Source: a virus
Lineage: Duplodnaviria > Heunggongvirae > Uroviricota > Caudoviricetes
DNA: 64,000 bases
Direction: 5' to 3' (one strand)
IMG/VR virus record: IMGVR_UViG_3300025072_002801
This document shows, in pieces, positions 43,971 through 62,421 of this stretch. The position numbers and the translations under genes are program-made. How positions within the stretch are numbered: position 1 is the first letter of the stretch; the number at the start of each line of letters is the position of its first letter. Below the pieces are notes generated by a model, which saw nothing but the letters and a program-made list of their open reading frames with translations, did no database searches and was not told the DNA's origin.

Positions 43971-46052
43971 ATGAGACATGAAATATGTGGCTTTGAAAAT
44001 CTCCACTTACACACCGATTAACTGAGGTCGCTTAGTTTGCGAAAGCTGCTAAGAAAACTGGATGAATTCAGGGAACCCCTAACGTAAAGTCGAGGGCAAT
44101 CCTGAGCGAAGCCTAAAGTACACTTTAGGAACGTGCAGAGACTACCTGAGAGGTTAAGCCCTCTTAATTACAGGCAAGAGCGTCCAGCGCCTAAGACTTA
44201 ATGTTATGGCGAAGAGATAGTCCACCCCCATTAGAAAATTTTGGGAAAATTTTTTGTGTTCAGTTTACTTGACGGATATGGAACGGCAGAAGAATATGCG
44301 CTTCGAGCGACAAAGATCAATCAAAGATTTTTGACTGTCTCAGATCATGGAATGATGGCTGCTATTCCAAGACAGGTAAAAGCTTGTGACGATAATGGCA
44401 TTAAGCCAATTTTTGCTTGCGAGCTTTACCTTAGCCCATACCAAACAGCAAAAATGGATTGGGATGAAAGGAAGAAAGAATTTAGTGCCAAAGGCGAATC
44501 CGATAAATTAAGAAAGTCTTATCATCTTTTGGCAATTGCTTATACTAATCAAGGATATAAAAACCTTGTTCGTCTTACATCATGGGGCTGGACTGAAGGG
44601 TTTTATTATAAGCCAAGAGTTAATCATGAGCAAATAATGGCACACAAAGAAGGGATCATGTTCACCTCGTGCTGTTATTTGAGCGAGATTGGACAAGCCT
44701 TTGACAAATTTGGCGAAGAAGCTGCCTTCAGGATGGTAGAAAAATATCATCGTATGTTTGGTGAAAATTTTCGCCTAGAACTTATGTTGTTGGATTTTAA
44801 AAAGCAAAAGCCATACGATGCATTTATTCTTAAAGCGCACGACAAGTATGGAATTCCTTTAATCATCACAAACGACTGCCATTACTGCAACCCAGAGGAT
44901 TCTCACTACCAGAGGCTTTCGTTGATGGTAAATCAAAAAAGCACAATTCAGGAAGTTGAGAGGAAGGTCGCAGCAGGAGAAGCGGAAGATCTGTTCGAAT
45001 TGCAGGACCAGAATCTTTGGATGAAATCGGAAGATGAGCTAAATCAGAAATGGGAATCCGATTACTCAGACATAATTGACTATGATCTTTTCAAACAAGC
45101 TAAGGCGAATACAGTCAAGGTTTGCGAAATGGTTGATGTTAATCTTGATAGAACTCTCAAGCTGCCAGACATTGATGACGCTAATGAAAAACTTAAGGAT
45201 GTTGTAATGGAAGGCTTTAAATTCCGTGGACTTCCTAAAACTAAAAAATATCAAATGAGAATTAAAGAAGAGTATAGTTTGATATGCAGAAAGGGATTTT
45301 CTTCTTACTTTTTGATACAGAAGGCAATGACCGATGAAGCCCGTCGTGCTTCTCCGCAGATCCTTGGATGGGGTGACGGAAGCGAAGCTGTTGGTCCAGG
45401 CAGAGGATGCTTGTCTCCAGATACATTCATCTACATAGAAAGCATTAAAAACTACAAGAAGATTAAGTTTGTAGAAATTGGGGATACAGTCATTAATCGT
45501 AAAGGAGAAGTCGTAAAAGTTGTTGATGTATTGAAATATCCGAACAAGGAAGAGATGATTAAGCTGAAATGCTTTTATGGAGATGTTATTGGTGCTACTT
45601 TTACCAAAGATCACAAAGTTCTTTCTACCAAAAGTTCAGACAAAGAGTTGGAATGGAAAGAGGCAAATGATATAGAGGAAGGAGATTGGGTCTTCTGCCC
45701 TGAGTCAAAGCATTTGGTTGACATATTGAAAAATGAAATTAATGAGGAGTATGCTCAACCACTTGAAAGTGGGGGGTACTTGCTAAGAATTAAGAAGAAA
45801 AAGACAATTCCGCCTGTAATTCCATCGGTTTATGACCTAACCGTTGAGGGAGATGAGCATAATTATCTAACTTCAACCTGTCTAGTGCATAATTCAGCCG
45901 TAGGCGCTCTCACATGCTACTGTTTGGGCATTACTGACATCGACCCAATCAAACATGACCTTTTGTTTAGTCGCTTCCTGAGCGAAGCCAGGGGCGGTAA
46001 ATCAATCAAATTAAGATATAAAAATATCGACCCAGTAGGGTGCGAAAAATGA
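43971..46052 (+). CDS. dnaE: DNA polymerase III alpha, N-terminal half (PHP domain plus part of the palm). Exon 1 is 43971-44018 and exon 2 is 44259-46052.
   Basis: The spliced junction gives 'HLHTD|FSLLDG'. Also 'TVSDHG', 'FACELY', 'TNDCHY', 'GFSSYFL', 'GPGRG|SAVG', 'IDPIKHDLLFSRFL'. The stop comes before the PDIDID motif. Confidence 0.92.
44019..44258 (+). mobile_element. Group I intron (240 nt, no ORF, IA-like)
   Basis: The 5' exon ends in U and the intron ends in G. P1: CGAU/GUCG. P10: AACUGA/UCAGUU. P/Q: AATTCAGGGA/AATCCTGAGC. P3: CTGGAT/GTCCAG. P7: GACTA/TAGTC, within 'GCAGAGACTAC' and 'AAGAGATAGTCC'. Confidence 0.93.
45408..45893 (+). mobile_element. Mini-intein (162 aa, no endonuclease) in dnaE-N
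   Basis: CLSPDT...VYDLTV...HNY...LVHN followed by Ser+1; removal restores GPGRGSAVG. Confidence 0.92.
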
Positions 46053-53774: not shown

Positions 53775-54119
53775 ATGGGCATCGGTCCATTTAGAAGATC
53801 TTCTTCCGGCGTTTCTGCGCCCGCTCCAAACCCCAATCCTGATAAGTACGAAATCATTACAGTAAAAGAGGAAGGTAATGTCGTAATGATTGAGCTTAAG
53901 TACGAAGATTGTACGACATACGAGGGGCGTAAATTATTAGTTTATTATGGCGTTACTGTAGCTGATTTATGGAAGCAAGGATCTTTAGATCCGCATTTCA
54001 CAGACAGAGCAGATGTCATTTCCCCCGTTGCCAGATTGCGACCAAATGCTTTGGGGTGGATATTGGCTGAGTCATTGGCAGATGATCTTAATGGAATGAT
54101 GAGTGATGACAACAAGTAG
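53775..54119 (+). CDS. Hypothetical protein
   Basis: 'KYEDCTTYEGRKLLVY', 'LDPHF', 'PVARLRP'. Confidence 0.65.
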   Translation: MGIGPFRRSSSGVSAPAPNPNPDKYEIITVKEEGNVVMIELKYEDCTTYEGRKLLVYYGVTVADLWKQGSLDPHFTDRADVISPVARLRPNALGWILAESLADDLNGMMSDDNK

Positions 54120-54270
54120 AGCAATGTATTCTTGGTGCATATTTAGCAAGAATGATTGTCTTTTATTTTCTCATGCTATGCGAGCAAGTCGGACTTCCTG
54201 GTCGCTGAATAATTCGTGGTGCAAGTATGTTGGTGAGGAAAATCATTTTTTATGGTGGGCGGAACAGTGA
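54106..54270 (+). CDS. WxxY-array member (54 aa, not in the ORF track)
   Basis: MTTSRAMYSWCIF...TSWSLNNSWCKYVGEE; aligns with ORF 54863. Confidence 0.6.
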   Translation: MTTSRAMYSWCIFSKNDCLLFSHAMRASRTSWSLNNSWCKYVGEENHFLWWAEQ

Positions 54271-54333
54271 GTGACATGATAATGAAAGGCATCCCAACAA
54301 TCTAACAAAAGAAATTATGGACGATTGGGAAAA

Positions 54334-54671
54334 TTATATAGATGGTTAATTCAACTCGTAGAAGAAGAAAGAAGCGGGAGGCTCGTCGTGTAGAGCAATT
54401 GCATAATGAACATAAAAAAACGAATCGCGAAACTAAAGAGCATGCAGCTTTGATGATTTTTGAATGCGATGACTATGGTTATCGTTATAGCAGTCTTCTT
54501 TCTCAATCCAGACGCAGTATACTTTGTCAAATTAACGGATGGGAAAGATATTCCATTAATGAAAGACCGAATCCGTTATGGCGACCGCATTTTTCAATGA
54601 AAGAGCTTCTGAGAGATTGGGGAACTTATATAGATGGTTAATTCAACTCGTAGAAGAAGAAAGAAGCGGGA
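54334..54671 (+). repeat. 46-nt exact direct repeat spanning gene junctions (54334-54379 and 54626-54671)
   Basis: TTATATAGATGGTTAATTCAACTCGTAGAAGAAGAAAGAAGCGGGA. Confidence 0.9.
54342..54641 (+). CDS. WxxY-array member
   Basis: MVNSTRRRRKKREAR...NGWERYSINE...RDWGTYIDG. Confidence 0.7.
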   Translation: MVNSTRRRRKKREARRVEQLHNEHKKTNRETKEHAALMIFECDDYGYRYSSLLSQSRRSILCQINGWERYSINERPNPLWRPHFSMKELLRDWGTYIDG

Positions 54672-54870
54672 AGCGAGAGCGGCGAGAGATGTGGCGAGAT
54701 ATTGGTGGGGAGTTCCACGTAGCCGGTTGCCACTCGCCTCTATAAATGAATCTGTTCATGCATGGGGAACACTTATTTGTGATCCCATTTTTTGCACCTA
54801 TACGTTGCCAAAGAATGTTTTTATTATAGACAATTGGGAAAGTTATATGGAGGGAAAATTAAATGATTAA
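54634..54870 (+). CDS. WxxY-array member
   Basis: Same N-terminus as 54342; 'DNWESYMEG'. Confidence 0.7.
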   Translation: MVNSTRRRRKKREARAARDVARYWWGVPRSRLPLASINESVHAWGTLICDPIFCTYTLPKNVFIIDNWESYMEGKLND

Positions 54871-55093
54871 TCCCTGCTATGAAATATTTCTTGGAGAGTG
54901 GAGCACATGTGTGTTGGAGTTTAAGTCCTCCTCCATAACGAGTGCGATGTATGCTTGGAGTAGATTTGAGGAATGCGACAAAGCACAAAAAACTGCGAGC
55001 CATACCAGTTCATCATGGTCGATTAGAGGTTCTTGGTGCGATTTTATAGATCAAGATTATTATGAAATCATAGAATTGTTATACCCAGAATGA
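54863..55093 (+). CDS. WxxY-array member
   Basis: 'YAWSRFEE', 'GSWCDFIDQD'. Confidence 0.68.
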   Translation: MINPCYEIFLGEWSTCVLEFKSSSITSAMYAWSRFEECDKAQKTASHTSSSWSIRGSWCDFIDQDYYEIIELLYPE

Positions 55094-55189
55094 GTTATGA
55101 ATTATGGAATATTTAGAATTATCATATTTGGTGCATTGGCATTACATTGCCTTTAATGCGTAGAGTTTATCCACAACTGATACTCAATC

Positions 55190-55495
55190 ATGAGTGAAAT
55201 AAATAAATACAACAGTCCAATCGTAATAAATGTAATTTCTGATTGGTCTAATTTTGAAAAAGAAGAAAAGTCACTCCCGCCCTTTGGCAGCAAAAGGAGT
55301 TTGATCAAAGACTCTTGGTGTAATTATATAAATGAGGATAGTTTAGAAGAAGAATACGGAATTGGATGTTTTGATAGAATTTCCATTCCTGTTCGCAGAG
55401 CCTATCCGCAACTTATTGCGAACAAGATTGTTGATGTTCAGCCGTTAAAAAATGCTGCATCTATTTTTTATTTAAAATACAGGTATGTTCAATAA
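55190..55495 (+). CDS. WxxY-array member fused to a gp23 major-capsid (Gol-region) fragment
   Basis: 'DSWCNYINED'; C-terminal 'PVRRAYPQLIANKIVDVQPL...IFYLKYRY'. Confidence 0.75.
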   Translation: MSEINKYNSPIVINVISDWSNFEKEEKSLPPFGSKRSLIKDSWCNYINEDSLEEEYGIGCFDRISIPVRRAYPQLIANKIVDVQPLKNAASIFYLKYRYVQ

Positions 55496-55779
55496 TGTTC
55501 ATAGTAGATTCAATTTCAGATGTTGACGTGTTTCCATATCCATATCCATATCCGCTTGAAGAAATTGGAAAGTTGACAATTGCTTGGAAGAGGTATGAAG
55601 ATGGCGAAGTTGCTTCTCATCCTTTTGGTATAATCAGCAGAGCAGATGCTTCAGTCAGGACATGCAAGCAATCTTGGTGCAATTACATAGACGAATCATA
55701 TGAAAACATATTTGATCCACAATATCTTTCTTGGAAGGATTATGTGGAGAATATGATTCGTATAATGAAAGGGATATAA
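55495..55779 (+). CDS. WxxY-array member
   Basis: 'IAWKRYEDG', 'QSWCNYIDES', 'SWKDYVEN'. Confidence 0.7.
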   Translation: MFIVDSISDVDVFPYPYPYPLEEIGKLTIAWKRYEDGEVASHPFGIISRADASVRTCKQSWCNYIDESYENIFDPQYLSWKDYVENMIRIMKGI

Positions 55780-55791
55780 AGGTGGAATATT

Positions 55792-56151
55792 ATGATTACA
55801 AATGAAGAAATCTTAAATGCTTTGGATGGTCTTGAGAAACCAGTTTATGATGTTCATGAACTTGCAGATGCATGGTACTCTTCAGGAGCAATGCTAAGAG
55901 CTTTAGGCAAAGACACTGGCGAATACACAAAGGTTATTAGAGTTCGCGTGAAAGGCGATGAGAACTCGCCACGACCTTATAGCCGTGGAATTATTGAATT
56001 ACATCCAACGGAAGACGACAAGGTTCGAATTAGTTGTTATTGTTGTTTTGTGAAAGATGAAGATGTAGAAAAGGGTGAATTCGCCTTAGAAGATCTAAAA
56101 GAAGCTGTCATGTCATTAAAAGATCACAATTGTCCTCCATGGCCAGGGTAA
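55792..56151 (+). CDS. Hypothetical protein embedded in the array
   Basis: GGTGG RBS; only a weak motif ('DAWYSS'). Confidence 0.65.
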   Translation: MITNEEILNALDGLEKPVYDVHELADAWYSSGAMLRALGKDTGEYTKVIRVRVKGDENSPRPYSRGIIELHPTEDDKVRISCYCCFVKDEDVEKGEFALEDLKEAVMSLKDHNCPPWPG

Positions 56152-56154
56152 AAC

Positions 56155-56391
56155 ATGTTAGTTAGATTAGACAATGTTGCAGTAGAAACAGGCAACATAA
56201 CATATGTGATAGATCGCTGGGATGATCCTGGCGTAGACTATAATGGAGAAGCCGTTAGGCCACATACAAGGGTTCATTTCGGTATTAAAGATTACCTGCG
56301 TGTTTATACTCCATACTTGGACGTATTAGATCAATTAAAACGCCCTCACACTATGTTGGATGATTGGGAGAGTTATGCAAGAAATCAGTGA
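56155..56391 (+). CDS. Array member ending in 'DDWESYARNQ'
   Basis: Motif at the C-terminus; the 21-nt repeat TGGGAGAGTTATGCAAGAAAT (56365-56385) is also at 56555-56575. Confidence 0.62.
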   Translation: MLVRLDNVAVETGNITYVIDRWDDPGVDYNGEAVRPHTRVHFGIKDYLRVYTPYLDVLDQLKRPHTMLDDWESYARNQ

Positions 56392-56584
56392 AATATTGGC
56401 GGGACATTCTGGGGAGATGTCTAGGTTGGCAGATGCCTGGAGAAGATATATGGGAGAAGAATTTTCACCTTCTAGAACAATGTTTGGAGTTGTTTGGATG
56501 TTAGCTCCCGCACCAGATGAAGTGGTTAACGCAGTATGGTATTTGAAGGGATCATGGGAGAGTTATGCAAGAAATTCGAGGTGA
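56375..56584 (+). CDS. WxxY-array member
   Basis: MQEI start; 'DAWRRYMGEE', 'GSWESYARN'. Confidence 0.65.
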   Translation: MQEISEILAGHSGEMSRLADAWRRYMGEEFSPSRTMFGVVWMLAPAPDEVVNAVWYLKGSWESYARNSR

Positions 56585-56807
56585 TATTGAAAATTTGAAC
56601 AATGAATTGACTTTGGATTATCCTTATGGAGAGATGCCTGTCTTGCTAGAGTCTTGGAGAAGATATGTTGGAGAAGAGTCTGTTCTCCTTCGACACAGAA
56701 TTTCGAGAGAAGATTTGGCATGGAGAGCAGTATGGTCAGCCGAGGCGTCATGGTGCGATTATATAAATGAAGATCACTTAGAGATTATGAAGGCTTGTTG
56801 TTTATGA
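56565..56807 (+). CDS. WxxY-array member
   Basis: MQEI start; 'ESWRRYVGEE', 'ASWCDYINED'. Confidence 0.68.
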   Translation: MQEIRGDIENLNNELTLDYPYGEMPVLLESWRRYVGEESVLLRHRISREDLAWRAVWSAEASWCDYINEDHLEIMKACCL

Positions 56808-57094
56808 TTACCAACATTTTATATTCTTTCCAAACAGAGGTTCTCAATGTTGATAATTGGGCGGGCGTAGGATATGATTTTAATTACGGAGGAACAAGAG
56901 GAAATTTGATTGATGGCTGGTCGTCTTATGAAGGGTTGGATTTGCCAGAAGAACACTACTTTCCAGAGATACAACTCTTCATAGAGTCAGAAGAAATAGT
57001 CGCAACTACGAGAAAATTAAAAATGGAGTGGACTTATGAACTAGAAGAAGATTATAAGTCTGTGAAGTCTTTAGGGGATTTTGAAATTGATTAA
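56795..57094 (+). CDS. WxxY-array member fused to a short gp23 capsid fragment
   Basis: 'DGWSSYEG'; 'IESEEIVATTRKLKMEWTYELEEDYKSV'. Confidence 0.7.
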   Translation: MLFMITNILYSFQTEVLNVDNWAGVGYDFNYGGTRGNLIDGWSSYEGLDLPEEHYFPEIQLFIESEEIVATTRKLKMEWTYELEEDYKSVKSLGDFEID

Positions 57095-57563
57095 CAAAAT
57101 TTTACGTTCATTTGCAGAACACGTAGATTGTCCTATGTGTGACGTATATCATGGAACGGTGTTGGGCGTTTCTCGTTATTCGGAGATGCCAACATACCCA
57201 GAAAAAGAAGTTAAAATTCCTTTTGACAATCCTGCTTTTGAAGTGAGCAAAAATCTTCTTCAAGGATGGACAGGTTACTGCGAAGAAGGAGGATTAGCTT
57301 TTTCATCAAGCGTTTACGATTCTGAGGTTCGAGTACATAGTTTTTATCACAATCCATATCTAGACGTAGTTCCTGTAGCCCCACAAAGCCGAAAGCTAAA
57401 AGCTGTTTGGTCACGAGAAGCACAGGAAGATCTTAGAGCGGTTCATAATATTGATGCAGCAGCCAAATTATCTGAAGTCCTTGCTAGAGAGATAGTAGCG
57501 GAAATAGATGCAGAAGTAATTGAAGATATTTCAAACAATGTAGATCCATATTATATGGATTAA
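57081..57563 (+). CDS. Array member fused to a gp23 capsid backbone-helix fragment
   Basis: 'QGWTGYCEE'; 'SRKLKAVWSREAQEDLRAVHNIDAAAKLSEVLAREIVAEIDAEVI'. Confidence 0.8.
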   Translation: MKLINKILRSFAEHVDCPMCDVYHGTVLGVSRYSEMPTYPEKEVKIPFDNPAFEVSKNLLQGWTGYCEEGGLAFSSSVYDSEVRVHSFYHNPYLDVVPVAPQSRKLKAVWSREAQEDLRAVHNIDAAAKLSEVLAREIVAEIDAEVIEDISNNVDPYYMD

Positions 57564-57596
57564 CAAATCTTTACTATTATTTGCAGAAAGACAGTT

Positions 57597-57809
57597 ATGG
57601 GCAAAATAAGATGGGCATCTTTATGGGCGACATCATTCTATGAAGCACATACTGCTCCTGCAATCACCTCTTTGAAAAATGATTGGGCTCGATACATGGA
57701 AGACGAAAATCCAGGGGATTCTAGAGTTCCATGTAGAATAAAGCGGAGCATCATGACATCGTGGAGCAAGCATATTTCGTTGTCGAATGGATGGCTGGGC
57801 AATCTTTAA
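57597..57809 (+). CDS. WxxY-array member
   Basis: 'NDWARYMEDE', 'TSWSKHIS'. Confidence 0.62.
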   Translation: MGKIRWASLWATSFYEAHTAPAITSLKNDWARYMEDENPGDSRVPCRIKRSIMTSWSKHISLSNGWLGNL

Positions 57810-59791
57810 AAATAATCCGCCCATATCTGCATTGCTCGTCCTAACTTAGAGAAATATTCATCAGTGGATTCCTCTAATCCTTTCCCTATCTCTATGATAC
57901 ATTTCTTTGGTCCTGTCCGAAATCCTTCGCCAGTCAATTGAATGGAATCTATAAGTTCCCAGAAGTTTTCGTTCGCAGCAATCCCAGGAGCTTCTTTGAC
58001 CAAGTTCACAAGAGGGGTGCTGGCTCTTGTGTGATTTATAAATGGTCGTCCCACTGAGATTGAAAGATCAAGATGGTCGCATATTTTTTTAAATATTATG
58101 CCAAACCATATGTCATCAAATCGCCTGTAAGGGCTGTCCTGCCCCATTAGAGGAAAGAAGGATGTAACAGCCATAAATCCTCTGAAAGCCAAATTCATGC
58201 CACAATTTTTAACAACACAATTGTTTATGGTGTATGTGTGATTGTCTTTGACGTTTAAGTTGTAAACATATCCACTGTGATTGAAATTTGATGTTTTTTC
58301 TACTTTAAAATAAATGTAGGAATCATTTTTTCTCCACTTTGATGGAGTGCTTTCATTCTTTTTTTTCCATTTTCCTTTTACTTCCAATACATTGTTGATG
58401 AATTCGCTTGCTTGATCTCCGTATAAAGATATTTGATAAGCTCTTTTTTTGTTTTTTGATTTTGGCTGATATTCATTTAAAGAACAGTAAAATCCCAAAC
58501 TAGAAATTAAATATTTAATTTGATTTGCCAAGTCCCAACTTATTGTTTTTAAGTTGCAATATGGTCTATTTCTGTTTGTTCCAACATGCCCATCTCCAGC
58601 AAAATAGCCAGACATTAGTTTTTTAATGTTTTTACATCTTATCAAATCACAATTTATTTTTTTTGAATAAGAGTATTGCCCGCACCAATTGAAAAACCAA
58701 AAAGCTATATGCTTTCCATAGCATTCAATTCGAAGTTTGTTGTTTGAAATGTTAATTTTAGATTCTTTGTTGAATCTTGTTTTTAAGAAATTTATAATAA
58801 ATTTGCCAAGTGTGTCAATTTCTTTTGCGTGAAGAGAAAATGCAACACCACTGAAATTGTGAATGTTTTTCATTTTTTTTGATTTTGTGAAATTGCCTTC
58901 CGCCAAAAATAGTCCGATTGCATACATTTCATCGTCAGATAGTATGTTTTTTTTGAAATTTTTTAAAATGGGAGAAGCTAAGAAGTCTCCCTTTTTTATG
59001 TTTTTGGCCTTTTTGTATCCATTTAATGTCAATATCTCATGATCATCGGTGGTTTTTATGGACTGTCTCCTGCCAGCTATTTTTATTTCTTGACATTTTT
59101 TATTATTTACATGACTTCTTATAACTGCATTAATTGGATGTATTTCGTTTGAGTTTGTTATAATTTCATTGTCTGGAATTAGTTTTTCAATACGAATTAC
59201 AGTTCCATCACTTTTGGTAACTAATTGTTTTTCTAAAAAACACAGAGGGAAATACTGCCCTTTAGGGATGATGTAGTTATCTTTGGGCAGATGTATATCT
59301 GGAATACTGCCTGAAATCTGTTGTATCGAGTCCCAATCTGGTATTCCTTCCCATAATCCCATATTTGCGACCACATTATCTAAAGTTCCAAGATTGTAAT
59401 ATGGCAATCCCCTTGTTCTTGTGCCTGGAATAGAAGGTCGCCATTTTGGAGCTTTTGTGATTGAATCAATGTGTTCTTCGCAAAAAAGCTCAGATGTCCC
59501 TGGCAAACAGTCATCATCTAGGGTAAAAATAAATTGCGCCCCCATTTGGTGTGCTTTAAGGAATCCGTAACTTCTTATTGCACTGTCCCTTTTGGAGATT
59601 ATCCAGGCATTATCTTGTAAATCTTCATGAATTTCATTCCAAGAGTAATGATATTTGCAGTTGATGTCGAATGTTTTAGTAGGGTTGTCTTCTACTATTA
59701 TGATTTCATCCCAGTCTTTCCTTGATTCCCAGGAGTTGAGGAATTCTAAAATGCAATTTTCACGTATGGTTGGGACAACTAGAACTTTCAT
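57806..59791 (-). CDS. Reversibly-glycosylated-polypeptide / UDP-sugar mutase-like (GT75) protein, intein-containing
   Basis: 'VVPTIR', 'DSAIRSYG', 'TLDDDC', 'RGLPY', 'GLWEGIPDWD'; 'FPL|CGMNLAF' restored after splicing; 'RFDDIW', 'G.P.I.H.RAS'. Confidence 0.8.
   Translation of the reverse strand: MKVLVVPTIRENCILEFLNSWESRKDWDEIIIVEDNPTKTFDINCKYHYSWNEIHEDLQDNAWIISKRDSAIRSYGFLKAHQMGAQFIFTLDDDCLPGTSELFCEEHIDSITKAPKWRPSIPGTRTRGLPYYNLGTLDNVVANMGLWEGIPDWDSIQQISGSIPDIHLPKDNYIIPKGQYFPLCFLEKQLVTKSDGTVIRIEKLIPDNEIITNSNEIHPINAVIRSHVNNKKCQEIKIAGRRQSIKTTDDHEILTLNGYKKAKNIKKGDFLASPILKNFKKNILSDDEMYAIGLFLAEGNFTKSKKMKNIHNFSGVAFSLHAKEIDTLGKFIINFLKTRFNKESKINISNNKLRIECYGKHIAFWFFNWCGQYSYSKKINCDLIRCKNIKKLMSGYFAGDGHVGTNRNRPYCNLKTISWDLANQIKYLISSLGFYCSLNEYQPKSKNKKRAYQISLYGDQASEFINNVLEVKGKWKKKNESTPSKWRKNDSYIYFKVEKTSNFNHSGYVYNLNVKDNHTYTINNCVVKNCGMNLAFRGFMAVTSFFPLMGQDSPYRRFDDIWFGIIFKKICDHLDLSISVGRPFINHTRASTPLVNLVKEAPGIAANENFWELIDSIQLTGEGFRTGPKKCIIEIGKGLEESTDEYFSKLGRAMQIWADYF
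58205..59242 (-). mobile_element. Intein (346 aa) with a LAGLIDADG homing endonuclease
   Basis: CFLEKQLV...VYNLNV...HTY...VVKN followed by Cys+1; 'IGLFLAEGN' and 'SGYFAGDGH'. Confidence 0.88.
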
Positions 59792-59856: not shown

Positions 59857-62421
59857 TTGAGTAAGCAACGTTTTTTAGATATATGCAAAGAAAAGATGCG
59901 TGCTAAAGATATGCTGGATGATAAGCACAAGAAGCGAATGAAGGAGGAATTGTGGGAAGTCGAAGCCAAGGGCGAATATGACTACTTTCTTGATCTCTAC
60001 GACAAAGGCGCAAAGTATCCAGCCAACGAAAACAATCTTATGATCGTTGAATTGCTCGATCTTGATGAAAGTCATTCTTTCAATGTAGATGAAGAACCTG
60101 AAACAGAAATGGGAGACTTCCCAGACATTGACATTGATTACCTAAGACCAGTTAGGGATTATCTTAAAAACGATTGGGCACCAAAACACTTCGGAAAAGA
60201 AAACGTTTGTAATATTGCAAGTTATAATACGTTTGGAATCAAAAGTTCATTGATTGACATGGCTAAGGTTCATGGCTTAGATCGAAATGAAGTTTTGAAT
60301 ATCACCAAAAGCATTAAGCTAAAAGACGATGAAGGCGACCTAATGACATGGGAAACTGCACTTCAAGTCTATAAACCTCTAAAACAGTATTGTGAAGACC
60401 ATCCAGATGTGGCAGAGGCAGCACGTAGGCTTATCGACAGAAACAGAAGTAGAGGAAAGCATGCTGGTGGTTTAATTATTGCTAATCAGAGATTAGATGA
60501 ATTGATCCCATTAGTAATCGACAGTGGAGGAAATGTCACATCTTCTTGGGTAGAAGGATTGCATGCTCAAGATTTAGGACCAATGGGACTAATTAAGTTT
60601 GACTTGTTGGTTATTTCGAATATCGACAAAGTTGCAAAAATAACGGAAAGTATCAAAGAGCGTTATGGAATGGAATCTTTTTGTGCCTTGCCAGGACAAG
60701 AAGACTGGACGGATAAGAAATATTTAAACGACCCTAAAGCAATGGCTTTGGGAAGTGCTGGAAGAATGAAAGGAATATTTCAATTTGACTCAGACGGGAT
60801 TCGTTCACTGGCTTCTTTTGGGGGCGTTAAAAGTTTTGATGACATAGTTGCTTACACGGCATTATACCGGCCAGGACCATTAGAGAATTTAATGCATACA
60901 AAATATTGCAACAGAGCTAGTGGTCGTGAAAAGTATGAAATTCACCCTGTCCTAGAAAAAATTCTTGGATCAACATATGGAACGCTTGTATATCAAGAGC
61001 AGTGTATGCAAATTGCAAATGCAGTTGGTTTAATTCCTTTGCGAGATGGTTATGCATTAATTAAAGCAATTTCTAAAAAGAAAGTATCGGTTTTCAAAAA
61101 GTATCGTGATATGTTTATTGAAAACGGACAAAAAACTTTAGGATGGACAGAAGAAGCTGTAACAGAGTTGTGGGATCAAGTGGAATCCTTCGCCGGATAT
61201 GCCTTCAACAAATCCCACGCCGTTGCTTATTCTGACGTTACCGCCAGACTTCTTTATCTAAAGGCGAATTACCACCTAGAATTTTTCAATGGTATTTTGC
61301 AATGCGAAGCAAATGAAGATAAAATACAGAATTATAAAAATGATGCAATCTCATTCGGAATCAGTGTTGTGGGAGCAGACCTAAACAAATCAAGTGACGT
61401 GTCTGCAATAGTAAAGGACGAAGACAAGGATAGAATATACCAGGGAATATCAACAATAAAAGGAATTGGAGAAGTACCTGCATCTAAGATTGTAATGGAG
61501 AGAGATGTAAATGGACTTTACACTTCCTTGCAAGATTTTATGGATAGAGTTGGAACAGAATTGAATCTATTGAAGCCATTGATCTGTCTTAGAATGTTTG
61601 GAGACACTAACCCAATAACTCTTTACAAGTTTTATGAATATTATAAGACAGAACTAAAGAAAAGAGATGACAGAAGGAAGAGATTCGAAAAGACGCAGCA
61701 AAAGTGCAAATTAGATATTGCAGACTTTGAAAGGATTGGAGATGATCATGAAAAAGAAAAAGTAATAAAGAAGATGAATAAATCCAAAATGCAACTCGAA
61801 AACAAGATTGAAAAAGAAAGGCTTAATCCAATCAGAATCGAAGACTTCAATCCTGATGAACATGATATTTATATTGAAGATCAAATAATGGAATATTTGA
61901 CAAATATAGAAAAAGCGGAAAAGGCTTTTTATGGATTTCGTTGGATTCCTCTTGTTACATTAAGTCCTAATTACAAGCCAGGAAATACTTTCGAAAAATT
62001 AAATCATGAGGCAGAGATTCTTGGAAGACAGGCGGTAGGTCCAGTAGAGGCAGAAGTCATTAGCTTCCAAAGGGTTGATTTCAGAAGCGGAAAAGGGTTC
62101 CGTTGGGTGGCAGAAATGGAAGATGCAAATCAAGAAAAAGAAAAAGTCACAATATGGAATGATGATTATGAAAATTGGAAAGATGAATTTGTGACTGGAA
62201 AGTTGCTTAGAGTTAGGGTCACATCGCCTCAACAAGGATTTAAGGGATACACATTAGAGTCATACGGAAAGAATGCATACGGAAAAAGCAAGAAAGTGGA
62301 CAAAAGCGGTGATTTCAGGGTTGTGGTAATGCAGCCTGGAGTGCATAAACATGAAAAAATTGAACCGCCACCAACTGATGATGAATTTTTGACTATGATA
62401 GGAGAGGATCAGAAGGGATGA
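59857..62421 (+). CDS. dnaE: DNA polymerase III alpha, C-terminal half (catalytic palm, fingers, HhH, OB)
   Basis: 'FPDIDIDY', 'GKHAGG', 'LIKFDLL', 'GIFQF', 'ALYRPGP', 'VYQEQ', 'YAFNKSHAVAY'; TTG start after AAGGAG. Confidence 0.93.
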   Translation: MSKQRFLDICKEKMRAKDMLDDKHKKRMKEELWEVEAKGEYDYFLDLYDKGAKYPANENNLMIVELLDLDESHSFNVDEEPETEMGDFPDIDIDYLRPVRDYLKNDWAPKHFGKENVCNIASYNTFGIKSSLIDMAKVHGLDRNEVLNITKSIKLKDDEGDLMTWETALQVYKPLKQYCEDHPDVAEAARRLIDRNRSRGKHAGGLIIANQRLDELIPLVIDSGGNVTSSWVEGLHAQDLGPMGLIKFDLLVISNIDKVAKITESIKERYGMESFCALPGQEDWTDKKYLNDPKAMALGSAGRMKGIFQFDSDGIRSLASFGGVKSFDDIVAYTALYRPGPLENLMHTKYCNRASGREKYEIHPVLEKILGSTYGTLVYQEQCMQIANAVGLIPLRDGYALIKAISKKKVSVFKKYRDMFIENGQKTLGWTEEAVTELWDQVESFAGYAFNKSHAVAYSDVTARLLYLKANYHLEFFNGILQCEANEDKIQNYKNDAISFGISVVGADLNKSSDVSAIVKDEDKDRIYQGISTIKGIGEVPASKIVMERDVNGLYTSLQDFMDRVGTELNLLKPLICLRMFGDTNPITLYKFYEYYKTELKKRDDRRKRFEKTQQKCKLDIADFERIGDDHEKEKVIKKMNKSKMQLENKIEKERLNPIRIEDFNPDEHDIYIEDQIMEYLTNIEKAEKAFYGFRWIPLVTLSPNYKPGNTFEKLNHEAEILGRQAVGPVEAEVISFQRVDFRSGKGFRWVAEMEDANQEKEKVTIWNDDYENWKDEFVTGKLLRVRVTSPQQGFKGYTLESYGKNAYGKSKKVDKSGDFRVVVMQPGVHKHEKIEPPPTDDEFLTMIGEDQKG

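What the first reader, a model, noticed from the sequence alone, without database searches (positions are those of the whole stretch)
55391..55486. Isolated copy of the Gol-peptide region of gp23
Seen: the 101-aa ORF ends in VRRAYPQLIANKIVDVQPLKNAASIFYLKYRY. Known (recalled; verify): the T4 gp23 Gol peptide, AVMGMVRRAIPNLIAFDICGVQPMNSPTG, binds EF-Tu and activates the Lit abortive-infection protease. About 12 of the 18 core positions (VRRA.P.LIA..I..VQP) are identical. Only this immune-trigger segment is retained here. Inference: a decoy or antagonist of Lit-like or other capsid sensors, or a deliberate EF-Tu binder that modulates translation.
Basis: partly seen in the sequence, partly recalled or inferred. 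Interest (0 to 1): 0.8.

Follow-up and report, generated by a model that had tools for sequence, protein, structure and literature searches.

The report
Capsid-fragment mini-gene in huge phage
A 101-codon gene of a very large uncultured phage really does end in a copy of the most conserved stretch of the T4-type capsid protein, but it is one of three capsid-fragment genes in a row of shuffled mini-genes and belongs to a widespread class of such genes that I could not find in print and whose function is untested.

Summary
ORF 55190-55495 ends in a segment homologous to T4 gp23 residues 99-131, which contain the Gol core (12 of 18 core positions identical). It is much closer (66% identity) to residues 56-99 of ~480-aa gp23-type capsid proteins of uncultured huge phages.

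It is not isolated. Two ORFs 1.3-1.6 kb downstream carry the capsid strand-plus-spine-helix segment. All three lie in a translationally coupled array of about 14 mini-genes between the two halves of a split DnaE. The N-terminal half of ORF101 is a 'double-W' module shared with seven array paralogs.

Stand-alone 'capsid fragment plus tag' mini-proteins with the same fragment boundaries are widespread in huge-phage metagenomes. In one complete 533-kb phage, such a copy is 88% identical in protein to its own capsid protein but heavily diverged at synonymous sites, so it is kept by selection. ORF101 is a divergent member: it keeps 19 of 25 near-invariant positions and lacks the Lys-rich/YRSIDDPW tag.

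Mimicry of the capsid segment is the leading reading but is untested. The Lit/EF-Tu idea is neither supported nor excluded. The scan has found capsid-fragment mini-genes before on other DNA. No description in print was found.

The parts
55190..55495 (+). ORF101, a 101-aa chimeric mini-gene (double-W module plus capsid N-arm fragment)
   Evidence: ORF list and sequence. In-frame codon-usage log-likelihood is +0.18 against -0.54 and -0.72 out of frame, like real genes of the window. The sequence is identical on four other metagenome contigs.
55217..55354 (+). Double-W module of ORF101 (residues 10-55; W19 and W43 in W-x-x-[YF] motifs)
   Evidence: phmmer against all window ORFs hits array paralogs at E 1e-5 to 1e-3. 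An HMM of 8 paralogs gives 1e-17 to 1e-23 for members (circular: each was used to build the model) and 0.14 for the best non-member. Alignment A4. The AF2 model shows two helices at low confidence.
55361..55486 (+). Capsid-derived segment (residues 58-99), homologous to residues 56-99 of ~480-aa gp23-type capsid proteins and to T4 gp23 ~89-131
   Evidence: Same boundaries as the N-arm mini-protein family. Keeps 19 of 25 near-invariant positions.
55391..55486 (+).
55493..55497 (+). TAATG stop/start overlap with the next array gene (55495-55779)
   Evidence: Sequence. The same kind of overlap (ATGA) joins tagged mini-genes in the 533-kb phage G001.
56795..57094 (+). ORF99: W-motif N-terminus plus degenerate capsid strand/spine-helix start (Gp23 profile positions 105-167)
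   Evidence: Pfam E 3.4e-6. hmmsearch with a capsid mid-region profile gives E 1e-11.
57081..57563 (+). ORF160: W-motif N-terminus plus capsid strand and spine helix (Gp23 profile 141-195; T4 gp23 256-311)
   Evidence: Pfam E 3.4e-14. phmmer to PDB 6uzc/5vf3 gives E 1e-8. In the segment tree it is sister to the stand-alone mini-protein P0004.
54103..57809 (+). Array of about 14 tightly packed small + strand ORFs; 8 carry the double-W module, 3 carry capsid fragments

Best explanation
ORF101 is a real, chimeric mini-gene. Its first half is a small, probably helical 'double-W' module shared with seven neighbouring paralogs. Its last 42 residues are a copy of the conserved N-arm and first beta-strand segment of a T4-type major capsid protein, the segment that contains the Gol region in T4. 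It is a divergent member of a widespread class of huge-phage mini-proteins that I could not find in print. Each of these displays one conserved piece of a head protein outside any capsid fold. Shown: the homology, the chimeric build, the array context, and the existence of the wider class with selection on it. Inferred: the protein acts in trans as a mimic of that capsid segment, occupying whatever normally binds the segment on unassembled capsid protein. I judge the most likely partner to be a host factor that reads this invariant segment (a capsid-sensing defence, or EF-Tu as in T4). A head-assembly partner (scaffold, portal, neighbouring subunit) is the next option.
For: Homology and boundaries. 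The conserved motif sits at residue ~70 in 80 of 80 retrieved loci, 73 of them with ORFs of at least 450 aa and the shorter ones on short or cut loci; in ORF101 it sits at residue 72.

Class: 97 small proteins match the N-arm fragment, and 36 of them end in a Lys/Arg-rich stretch plus a YRSIDDPW-like tag. 87 of the 150 best library matches to ORF160's capsid segment are 170 aa or shorter.

Selection in the class: in the complete 533-kb phage G001, the N-arm mini-protein is 42/48 identical to its own capsid protein, but only 18 of the 42 identical residues use the same codon. The tag is encoded with many synonymous codons in 19 copies. G001 has one full capsid gene plus at least four scattered fragment genes.

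ORF160 groups with the stand-alone mini-proteins, not with full capsid proteins.

The genes look coding and are translationally coupled.

The genes lie outside head modules, beside replication genes: between the DnaE halves here, beside a helicase and a DEDD exonuclease for P0004, and beside RNase T for P0016. This fits expression apart from the late head operon.

In T4 this segment is flexible in the prohead, faces the scaffold and later touches the portal whisker (PMC9546572). As a free peptide it binds EF-Tu (PMC3014915). So a free copy could plausibly bind something.
Against: ORF101 keeps only 19 of 25 positions that are 90% or more conserved in capsid proteins and mini-proteins; 17 of the 19 mini-proteins compared keep 23-25, one 22 and one outlier 16. 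It has lost the G-P-T-G turn and has two one-residue deletions.

It lacks the Lys-rich/YRSIDDPW tag, and a tag HMM finds nothing significant in the window.

Its module order is reversed (carrier first, fragment last) relative to the tagged family.

No diverged ortholog exists, so selection on ORF101 itself could not be measured: all five contigs are 100% identical.

The phage's own capsid gene is not in the 69-kb record, so mimicry of 'self' cannot be checked.

Structure models are of low confidence (ESM pLDDT 0.38; AF2 pLDDT 62).

A free Gol peptide in T4 activates Lit rather than blocking it, so a decoy would have to bind without triggering.

An earlier check within this scan priced the mimicry reading of a sister family at only 13/100.
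Confidence: 0.4

Rival explanations
1. Evolutionary debris in a fast-recombining array. A 5' piece of a capsid gene, or of an older tagged mini-gene, was captured by illegitimate recombination next to a double-W cassette. The ORF is still open and translated as a passenger, but the capsid-like tail no longer does anything.
For: Junction repeats of 21-75 nt between array genes, and a stranded motif remnant upstream of 54342, show ongoing duplication and shuffling. ORF101 has lost 6 of 25 near-invariant positions and the tag. ORF99's capsid piece is even more degenerate. The family has no close relatives outside this phage: the word-based protein search with ORF101 returned only the protein itself, and the nearest DnaE relatives are 27% identical.
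Against: A 101-codon frame staying open in 38% GC DNA is unlikely without selection. Codon usage is gene-like. The whole 3.7 kb is packed with coupled same-strand ORFs. The fragment still ends at exactly the family's boundaries. Three different capsid pieces in one array argue for retention rather than accident. ORF160 is a well-preserved member of a selected lineage.
Confidence: 0.3
2. Head-assembly role. The N-arm segment docks on the scaffold, portal or neighbouring capsid subunits as the real N-arm does. The mini-protein is therefore carried into proheads as an internal or minor head protein, tunes the phage's own assembly, or poisons the assembly of co-infecting relatives. The W-x-x-Y-[ILMV]-x-E motifs would then act as T4-like targeting or prohead-protease sites.
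For: In T4 proheads the gp23 N-terminal region up to L106 is disordered and faces the scaffolding core; Met98 later contacts the portal whisker (PMC9546572). T4 internal proteins are targeted by a 10-residue propeptide and released by prohead-protease cleavage after Glu (PMC9026906). The array motifs end in [ILMV]-x-E. Other proteins of this phage start with T4 CTS-like peptides (first-reader note e1-5428231; not tested here). In G001 the same tag also sits on a prohead-protease-like fragment.
Against: The genes lie among replication genes, not in a head module. A fragment that stays nearly identical to the phage's own capsid protein would also compete with that protein. The motif resemblance to T4 sites is only a pattern match. 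W-module HMM and HMM-HMM comparisons with capsid proteins are not significant. No virion proteomics exist.
Confidence: 0.15
3. One reading: a Gol-peptide decoy or antagonist of a Lit-like protease, or a deliberate EF-Tu binder that modulates translation.
For: 12 of 18 Gol-core positions are identical to T4. The T4 Gol peptide binds EF-Tu domains II-III, and about 100 N-terminal residues bind more stably. The authors cited in that review suggested that gp23 of T4-like phages in general binds EF-Tu (PMC3014915).
Against: The Gol region is simply the most conserved part of gp23, so any N-terminal capsid fragment would contain it. Other, non-Gol capsid pieces are displayed in the same way in this array and in other phages, which a Lit/EF-Tu-specific role does not explain. 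The host and its defences are unknown. In T4, free Gol activates Lit rather than inhibiting it.
Confidence: 0.08

Closest known systems
Gol region of T4 gp23 (residues 93-121), activator of the e14 Lit protease through EF-Tu
   Same: It is the homologous stretch of the capsid protein: 15 of 33 residues identical over T4 99-131 and 12 of 18 in the core. In T4 the isolated peptide is biologically active on its own (PMC3014915).
   Different: In T4 it is part of the capsid gene, not a separate gene. ORF101 is fused to an unrelated double-W module, is far closer to huge-phage capsid proteins than to T4, and has lost the P-T-G turn that follows the core. EF-Tu and Lit activity are untested.
T4-type major capsid proteins gp23/gp24 (Pfam PF07068, HK97 fold; PDB 6uzc, 5vf3)
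   Same: This is the source of the last 42 residues. The motif lies at the same distance from the N-terminus as in ~480-aa capsid proteins.
   Different: Only profile positions 12-44 of 376 are present. There is no E-loop return strand, spine helix, P domain or A domain, so it cannot form a capsid subunit.
Tagged capsid-fragment mini-proteins of huge phages (not found in print; for example P0154-P0248 and the four fragment genes of the 533-kb IMG/VR phage G001)
   Same: Stand-alone gene of 66-124 codons; identical fragment boundaries (F-K-R-I-S-I-P to Y-L-R-x-R-Y); tandem, overlapping mini-gene arrays; location outside the head module.
   Different: ORF101 lacks the Lys/Arg-rich linker and the YRSIDDPW tag. 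It carries its partner module N-terminally and is more diverged (19/25 against 23-25 for 17 of the 19 compared). The array's D-[DNS]-W-E-S-Y motifs only resemble tag variants such as I-T-D-D-W-E-V-S. That link is not statistically supported.
T4 capsid-targeting sequence and internal proteins, cleaved by the gp21 prohead protease
   Same: Small proteins carrying a short motif of aromatic residues followed by an aliphatic residue, any residue and Glu. This phage is T4-like in its capsid type (PMC9026906).
   Different: The T4 CTS is at the extreme N-terminus. Here the motifs are internal or C-terminal. No cleavage, packaging or protease gene is documented in this record.
microProteins and dominant-negative protein fragments (general concept; from my own knowledge, not tested here)
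   Same: A small protein derived from one interaction segment of a larger protein could act by titrating that protein's partners.
   Different: That concept is described for eukaryotic regulators and engineered fragments. I found no described phage example built from capsid pieces.

Membership tests
T4-type major capsid protein (Pfam PF07068 Gp23) | Score at or above the Pfam gathering threshold | tested here: not met
   23.9 bits against a 24.4 cut-off, E 3.2e-5. The homology is nevertheless secure through closer relatives.
T4-type major capsid protein (Pfam PF07068 Gp23) | Complete HK97-type subunit (N-arm, E-loop, spine helix, P and A domains; about 400-520 aa) | tested here: not met
   Only profile positions 12-44 of 376 are matched, and the ORF stops after residue 101.
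Gol peptide (functional definition) | Sequence of the 18-20 residue Gol core | tested here: met
   12 of 18 identical to T4 gp23 99-116. The 13 residues found critical by mutagenesis could not be checked because the paper is not held.
Gol peptide (functional definition) | Binds EF-Tu domains II-III and activates Lit cleavage of EF-Tu | not testable with these tools
   This needs biochemistry. The one co-fold job returned no verdict and is listed under Tried and rejected.
Tagged N-arm capsid-fragment mini-proteins (P0154 family) | Stand-alone small gene whose capsid-like part runs from F-K-R-I-S-I-P to Y-L-R-x-R-Y | tested here: met
   Alignment A3 shows the same start and end of the fragment; the gene is 101 aa.
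Tagged N-arm capsid-fragment mini-proteins (P0154 family) | Near-complete retention of capsid-invariant residues | tested here: not met
   19 of 25. Of the 19 mini-proteins compared, 17 keep 23-25, one 22 and one 16; all 5 capsid proteins keep 25.
Tagged N-arm capsid-fragment mini-proteins (P0154 family) | C-terminal Lys/Arg-rich stretch followed by a [YW]-R-x-I-[DT]-[DE]-P-W tag | tested here: not met
   The tag HMM's best hit in the array is E 3.7, and a regex scan of all window ORFs is empty.
Double-W module paralog family of this array | About 50-residue module with two invariant Trp in W-x-x-[YFH] motifs | tested here: met
   ORF101 residues 10-55. Pairwise phmmer E 1e-5 to 1e-3 to other array members in a database of 652 window ORFs. 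The family HMM gives E 1e-17, but ORF101 was used to build it. Alignment A4.
T4 CTS-bearing internal proteins | N-terminal ~10-residue targeting propeptide ending in a prohead-protease site | tested here: inconclusive
   The ORF101 N-terminus does not resemble it. Internal W-C-N-Y-I-N-E fits an [ILMV]-x-E pattern only. No cleavage data exist.

The most novel reading that the evidence does not exclude
Huge T4-like phages carry a library of stand-alone genes. Each displays one invariant peptide of their own head proteins (capsid N-arm/Gol, spine helix, A-domain helix, C-terminal strands, prohead protease) on a common carrier or tag. ORF101 and its two neighbours are this phage's version. Made apart from the late head genes, these peptides would occupy host sensors that recognise those invariant epitopes without triggering them. 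This would be counter-defence by self-mimicry.
Probability: 0.15. Interest if true: 0.9.

Novelty: new variant of a known kind. Interest (0 to 1): 0.6.

Why it matters
Capsid, portal and protease proteins are now known triggers of several bacterial defences. A phage cannot easily mutate their most conserved segments. Selected stand-alone copies of exactly those segments would therefore be either a new counter-defence principle (self-mimicry) or a new class of assembly regulators or competitor poisons. Either way they mark which peptides of the T4-type capsid protein are 'read' by something in the infected cell. That makes the old question of what the Gol region does for the phage directly testable. 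For ORF101 itself the value is smaller. It shows that such fragments are shuffled onto different carrier modules and can drift.

Tried and rejected
- Alternative genetic code or one long read-through gene: rejected. The frame from 55190 to 57094 has many stops of all three kinds, and long ORFs end in TAA, TGA and TAG.
- Split capsid gene with introns or inteins: rejected. ORF99 and ORF160 overlap on the capsid profile, nothing beyond position 196 is present, and the pieces differ in frame.
- W motif derived from the capsid protein (N-terminal W...LLEG, LLENQRLxNE or KAVWSxEAQQDL): suggestive by eye and in MAFFT, but hhalign gives E 0.25-0.42 and hmmsearch finds nothing. Not supported.
- W motif equal to the YRSIDDPW tag: not supported statistically.
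- Link between the Lys-rich tag and the phage's ubiquitin-like system: rejected. The tag-rich phage G001 has no ThiF E1 and no MIB/HERC2 domain.
- Co-fold of E. coli EF-Tu with ORF101 residues 55-101: no verdict (score 0.00, controls not run). It counts neither for nor against binding.
- phmmer of ORF101 against PDB: only spurious internalin repeats.
- AF2 of ORF101 with the paralog alignment: pLDDT 62, pTM 0.35, all-helical and too weak for fold searches. The Atlas searches gave nothing usable.
- Close relatives of this phage: none in IMG/VR or in phage records. The four other contigs are 100% identical, so no dN/dS is possible.
- The phage's own capsid gene: absent from the 69-kb record. The 129-kb ENA contig could not be searched.
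- Promoter and terminator scans were uninformative.
- Cultured or annotated phage records hold only full capsid genes, one place per record, and no mini-genes.

Full report
WHAT IS THERE. The window is 64 kb of a 69-kb IMG/VR virus record. CheckV rates the record 14% complete, which implies a genome near 0.5 Mb. GC content is 35-41%, the genetic code is standard, and no tRNA genes are present. ORF 55190-55495 (+) encodes 101 residues, and residues 68-99 are encoded by exactly the reported coordinates. The ORF sits in a 3.7-kb run (54103-57809) of about 14 small same-strand ORFs with overlapping or abutting stops and starts. The run lies between the two halves of a split DnaE-type polymerase (44241-46052 and 59857-62421) and next to an intein-bearing glycosyltransferase on the other strand.

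CHECK OF THE OBSERVATION. T4 gp23, read from NC_000866, contains the recalled Gol sequence at residues 93-121. BLASTP aligns ORF101 residues 68-99 with T4 residues 99-131: 15 of 33 identical, pairwise E 2e-5, and 12 of 18 in the core. Pfam Gp23 matches profile positions 12-44 at E 3.2e-5, a hair under the gathering score. PHROG 138 (major head protein) gives 4e-5. The convincing evidence comes from closer relatives. tblastn finds the 491-aa capsid protein of the 595-kb uncultured phage LR756511 at E 5e-8. A pattern scan of IMG/VR found 385 related stretches. In all 80 loci that were kept, the match lies in an ORF with the motif at residue ~70, against residue 72 in ORF101. In 73 of those loci the ORF is at least 450 aa; the shorter ones sit on short or cut loci. 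Pairwise identity to one of them is 66% over residues 58-99, E 3e-15.

NOT ISOLATED. Pfam and a search of the whole record find two more gp23 pieces 1.3-1.6 kb downstream. ORF99 (56795-57094) covers profile positions 105-167. ORF160 (57081-57563) covers positions 141-195, and it matches T4 gp23 residues 256-311 in PDB entries at E 1e-8. These are the strand and spine helix of the HK97 fold. The two overlap on the profile and differ from each other, so they are not exons of one broken gene. No full capsid gene is present in the record.

ANATOMY OF ORF101. Residues 9-59 match other array members in pairwise phmmer searches (E 1e-5 to 1e-3 in a database of all 652 window ORFs). Eight ORFs share a ~50-residue module with two invariant tryptophans in W-x-x-[YFH] motifs. 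A family HMM separates them sharply from every other window ORF: members score 1e-17 to 1e-23 and the best non-member 0.14. The member scores are circular, because the model was built from those same sequences. ORF101 is therefore a chimera: double-W module (residues 10-55) plus capsid fragment (residues 58-99). I tested whether the W module itself derives from the capsid protein, as several alignments hinted. HMM and HMM-HMM comparisons were not significant. All array ORFs have gene-like codon usage in frame and not out of frame. DNA repeats of 21-75 nt at gene junctions show that the cassettes duplicate and recombine. The AF2 model, built from the 12-row paralog alignment, is all-helical but of low confidence (pLDDT 62). 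The ESM Atlas model is worse.

THE WIDER CLASS. A full HMMER search of 1.8 billion representatives with ORF160 gave an unexpected result. Of the 150 best matches, 87 are proteins of 170 aa or fewer, most with the capsid segment near their N-terminus and at higher identity than full capsid proteins. Their sequences show a common design: the capsid strand plus spine helix, a variable linker, a Lys/Arg-rich stretch, and a C-terminal tag resembling Y-R-S-I-D-D-P-W-E. They are complete genes with flanks on both sides.

Scanning IMG/VR for the tag's degenerate DNA pattern found it repeatedly within single huge-phage contigs. In one 533-kb contig (G001, CheckV 100%) eleven ORFs carry it. The carriers include fragments covering four different parts of the capsid protein and a prohead-protease-like fragment. 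One G001 mini-protein carries exactly the N-arm/Gol fragment. A search with it found 97 small relatives, and 36 of them end in the tag. Their fragment boundaries coincide with those of ORF101.

Selection on this class is clear in three ways. The tag is written with many synonymous codons across 19 copies. In G001 the N-arm mini-protein is 42/48 identical to the phage's own capsid protein, yet only 18 of those 42 residues share a codon, which excludes recent copying or gene conversion. In a tree of the spine segment, the mini-proteins including ORF160 fall on one side of a branch (support 77/80; 82% of bootstrap trees), and ORF160 is sister to the stand-alone P0004 (98/83). The segment is only 56 columns long, so the tree is coarse.

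Annotated phage records contain only full capsid genes. I found no paper describing such genes. The scan's own index lists the same phenomenon in at least 37 other genomes, fused to other carriers. I reached the class independently, before reading those notes.

WHERE ORF101 FITS. It shares the fragment boundaries, the small size, the array context and the non-structural neighbourhood with the class. It differs in three ways. It keeps 19 of the 25 positions that are 90% or more conserved in capsid proteins and mini-proteins; of the 19 mini-proteins compared, 17 keep 23-25, one 22 and one 16. It lacks the Lys-rich/YRSIDDPW tag. Its carrier module comes first. Array motifs such as D-D-W-E-S-Y look like tag variants seen elsewhere (I-T-D-D-W-E-V-S; D-D-P-W-E-S-Y-E), but this is not statistically supported. 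All other contigs carrying ORF101 are 100% identical, and the nearest polymerase relatives are 27% identical. Selection on ORF101 itself could therefore not be measured.

HOW IT MOST LIKELY WORKS. Shown: a translated-looking mini-gene displays a conserved capsid segment without any capsid fold, and it belongs to a class kept by selection to resemble the capsid protein. Inferred: it acts by mimicry, binding what this segment binds. In T4 the segment is disordered in the prohead and faces the scaffold. It later forms part of the N-arm and touches the portal whisker (PMC9546572). As a free peptide it binds EF-Tu and turns on Lit (PMC3014915). [quoted passage not shown] This explains why any N-terminal fragment looks like 'the immune trigger'.

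The class displays several different invariant pieces of head proteins and sits beside replication genes rather than in head modules. I therefore favour a host-directed decoy over an assembly role, but with low confidence. My estimates are: a functional mimic of some kind 0.4; debris 0.3; assembly or internal-protein role 0.15; the Lit/EF-Tu-specific version 0.08. The single co-fold job with E. coli EF-Tu gave no verdict.

NOVELTY AND VERDICT. The homology is real, but the label 'isolated' is wrong. The immune-decoy idea is one live reading among several. ORF101 is a divergent, differently packaged variant of a class of capsid-fragment mini-genes that I could not find in print. The class is interesting; ORF101 itself is a less clean example of it than ORF160 or the tagged family.

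Noticed in passing
IMG/VR contig IMGVR_UViG_3300049215_000771 (G001; loci L099, L102, L104-L106, L110, L112, L114-L119): In this complete 533-kb phage, eleven small ORFs carry a Lys-rich stretch plus a YRSIDDPW tag, in most of them at or near the C-terminus. The carriers include four different capsid fragments, a prohead-protease-like fragment and a Cys-rich protein, and several stand in ATGA-overlapping arrays. The partner of the tag is unknown.
   Followed up: partly
window 44241-46052 and 59857-62421: The DnaE-type polymerase is split into two genes 13.8 kb apart (PHROG 405 positions 53-406 and 441-1044). Pfam on the identical ENA contig lists PHP, DNA_pol3_alpha and an Intein_splicing hit on the N-terminal gene.
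   Followed up: no
window 57806-59791 (-): A 661-aa RGP-like glycosyltransferase is interrupted by an intein with a LAGLIDADG endonuclease domain (Pfam hits on the identical contig).
   Followed up: no
L095:10001-10312 (ENA ERZ650264 contig, 23.7 kb): The stand-alone 103-aa spine-helix mini-protein P0004 lies between a ResIII/DEAD helicase and a DEDD exonuclease. P0016 likewise sits two genes from an RNase T-like gene. This may be conserved synteny with an exonuclease.
   Followed up: partly
LR756511.1 588176-588298 and 196016-196357 (loci L010, L011): This 595-kb phage has one full capsid gene plus two weak Gp23-profile matches (E 0.004 and 0.008) in 100- and 171-aa open frames. They may be further fragment genes.
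   Followed up: no
window 55493-55560: ORF101's stop overlaps the start of the next gene (TAATG). That gene opens with a P-Y-P-Y-P-Y-P linker and then a W motif. Read through in the -1 frame, fragment, linker and W motif would have the order seen in the tagged family. No slippery site was looked for.
   Followed up: no
window 54308-54382 and 54600-54674: A 75-nt direct repeat (88% identical) spans a gene end (D-W-x-x-Y-I-D-G stop) and the next gene's start (M-V-N-S-T-R-R-R-R-K-K-R-E). The upstream copy follows a stranded motif remnant with no intact ORF in front of it.
   Followed up: partly
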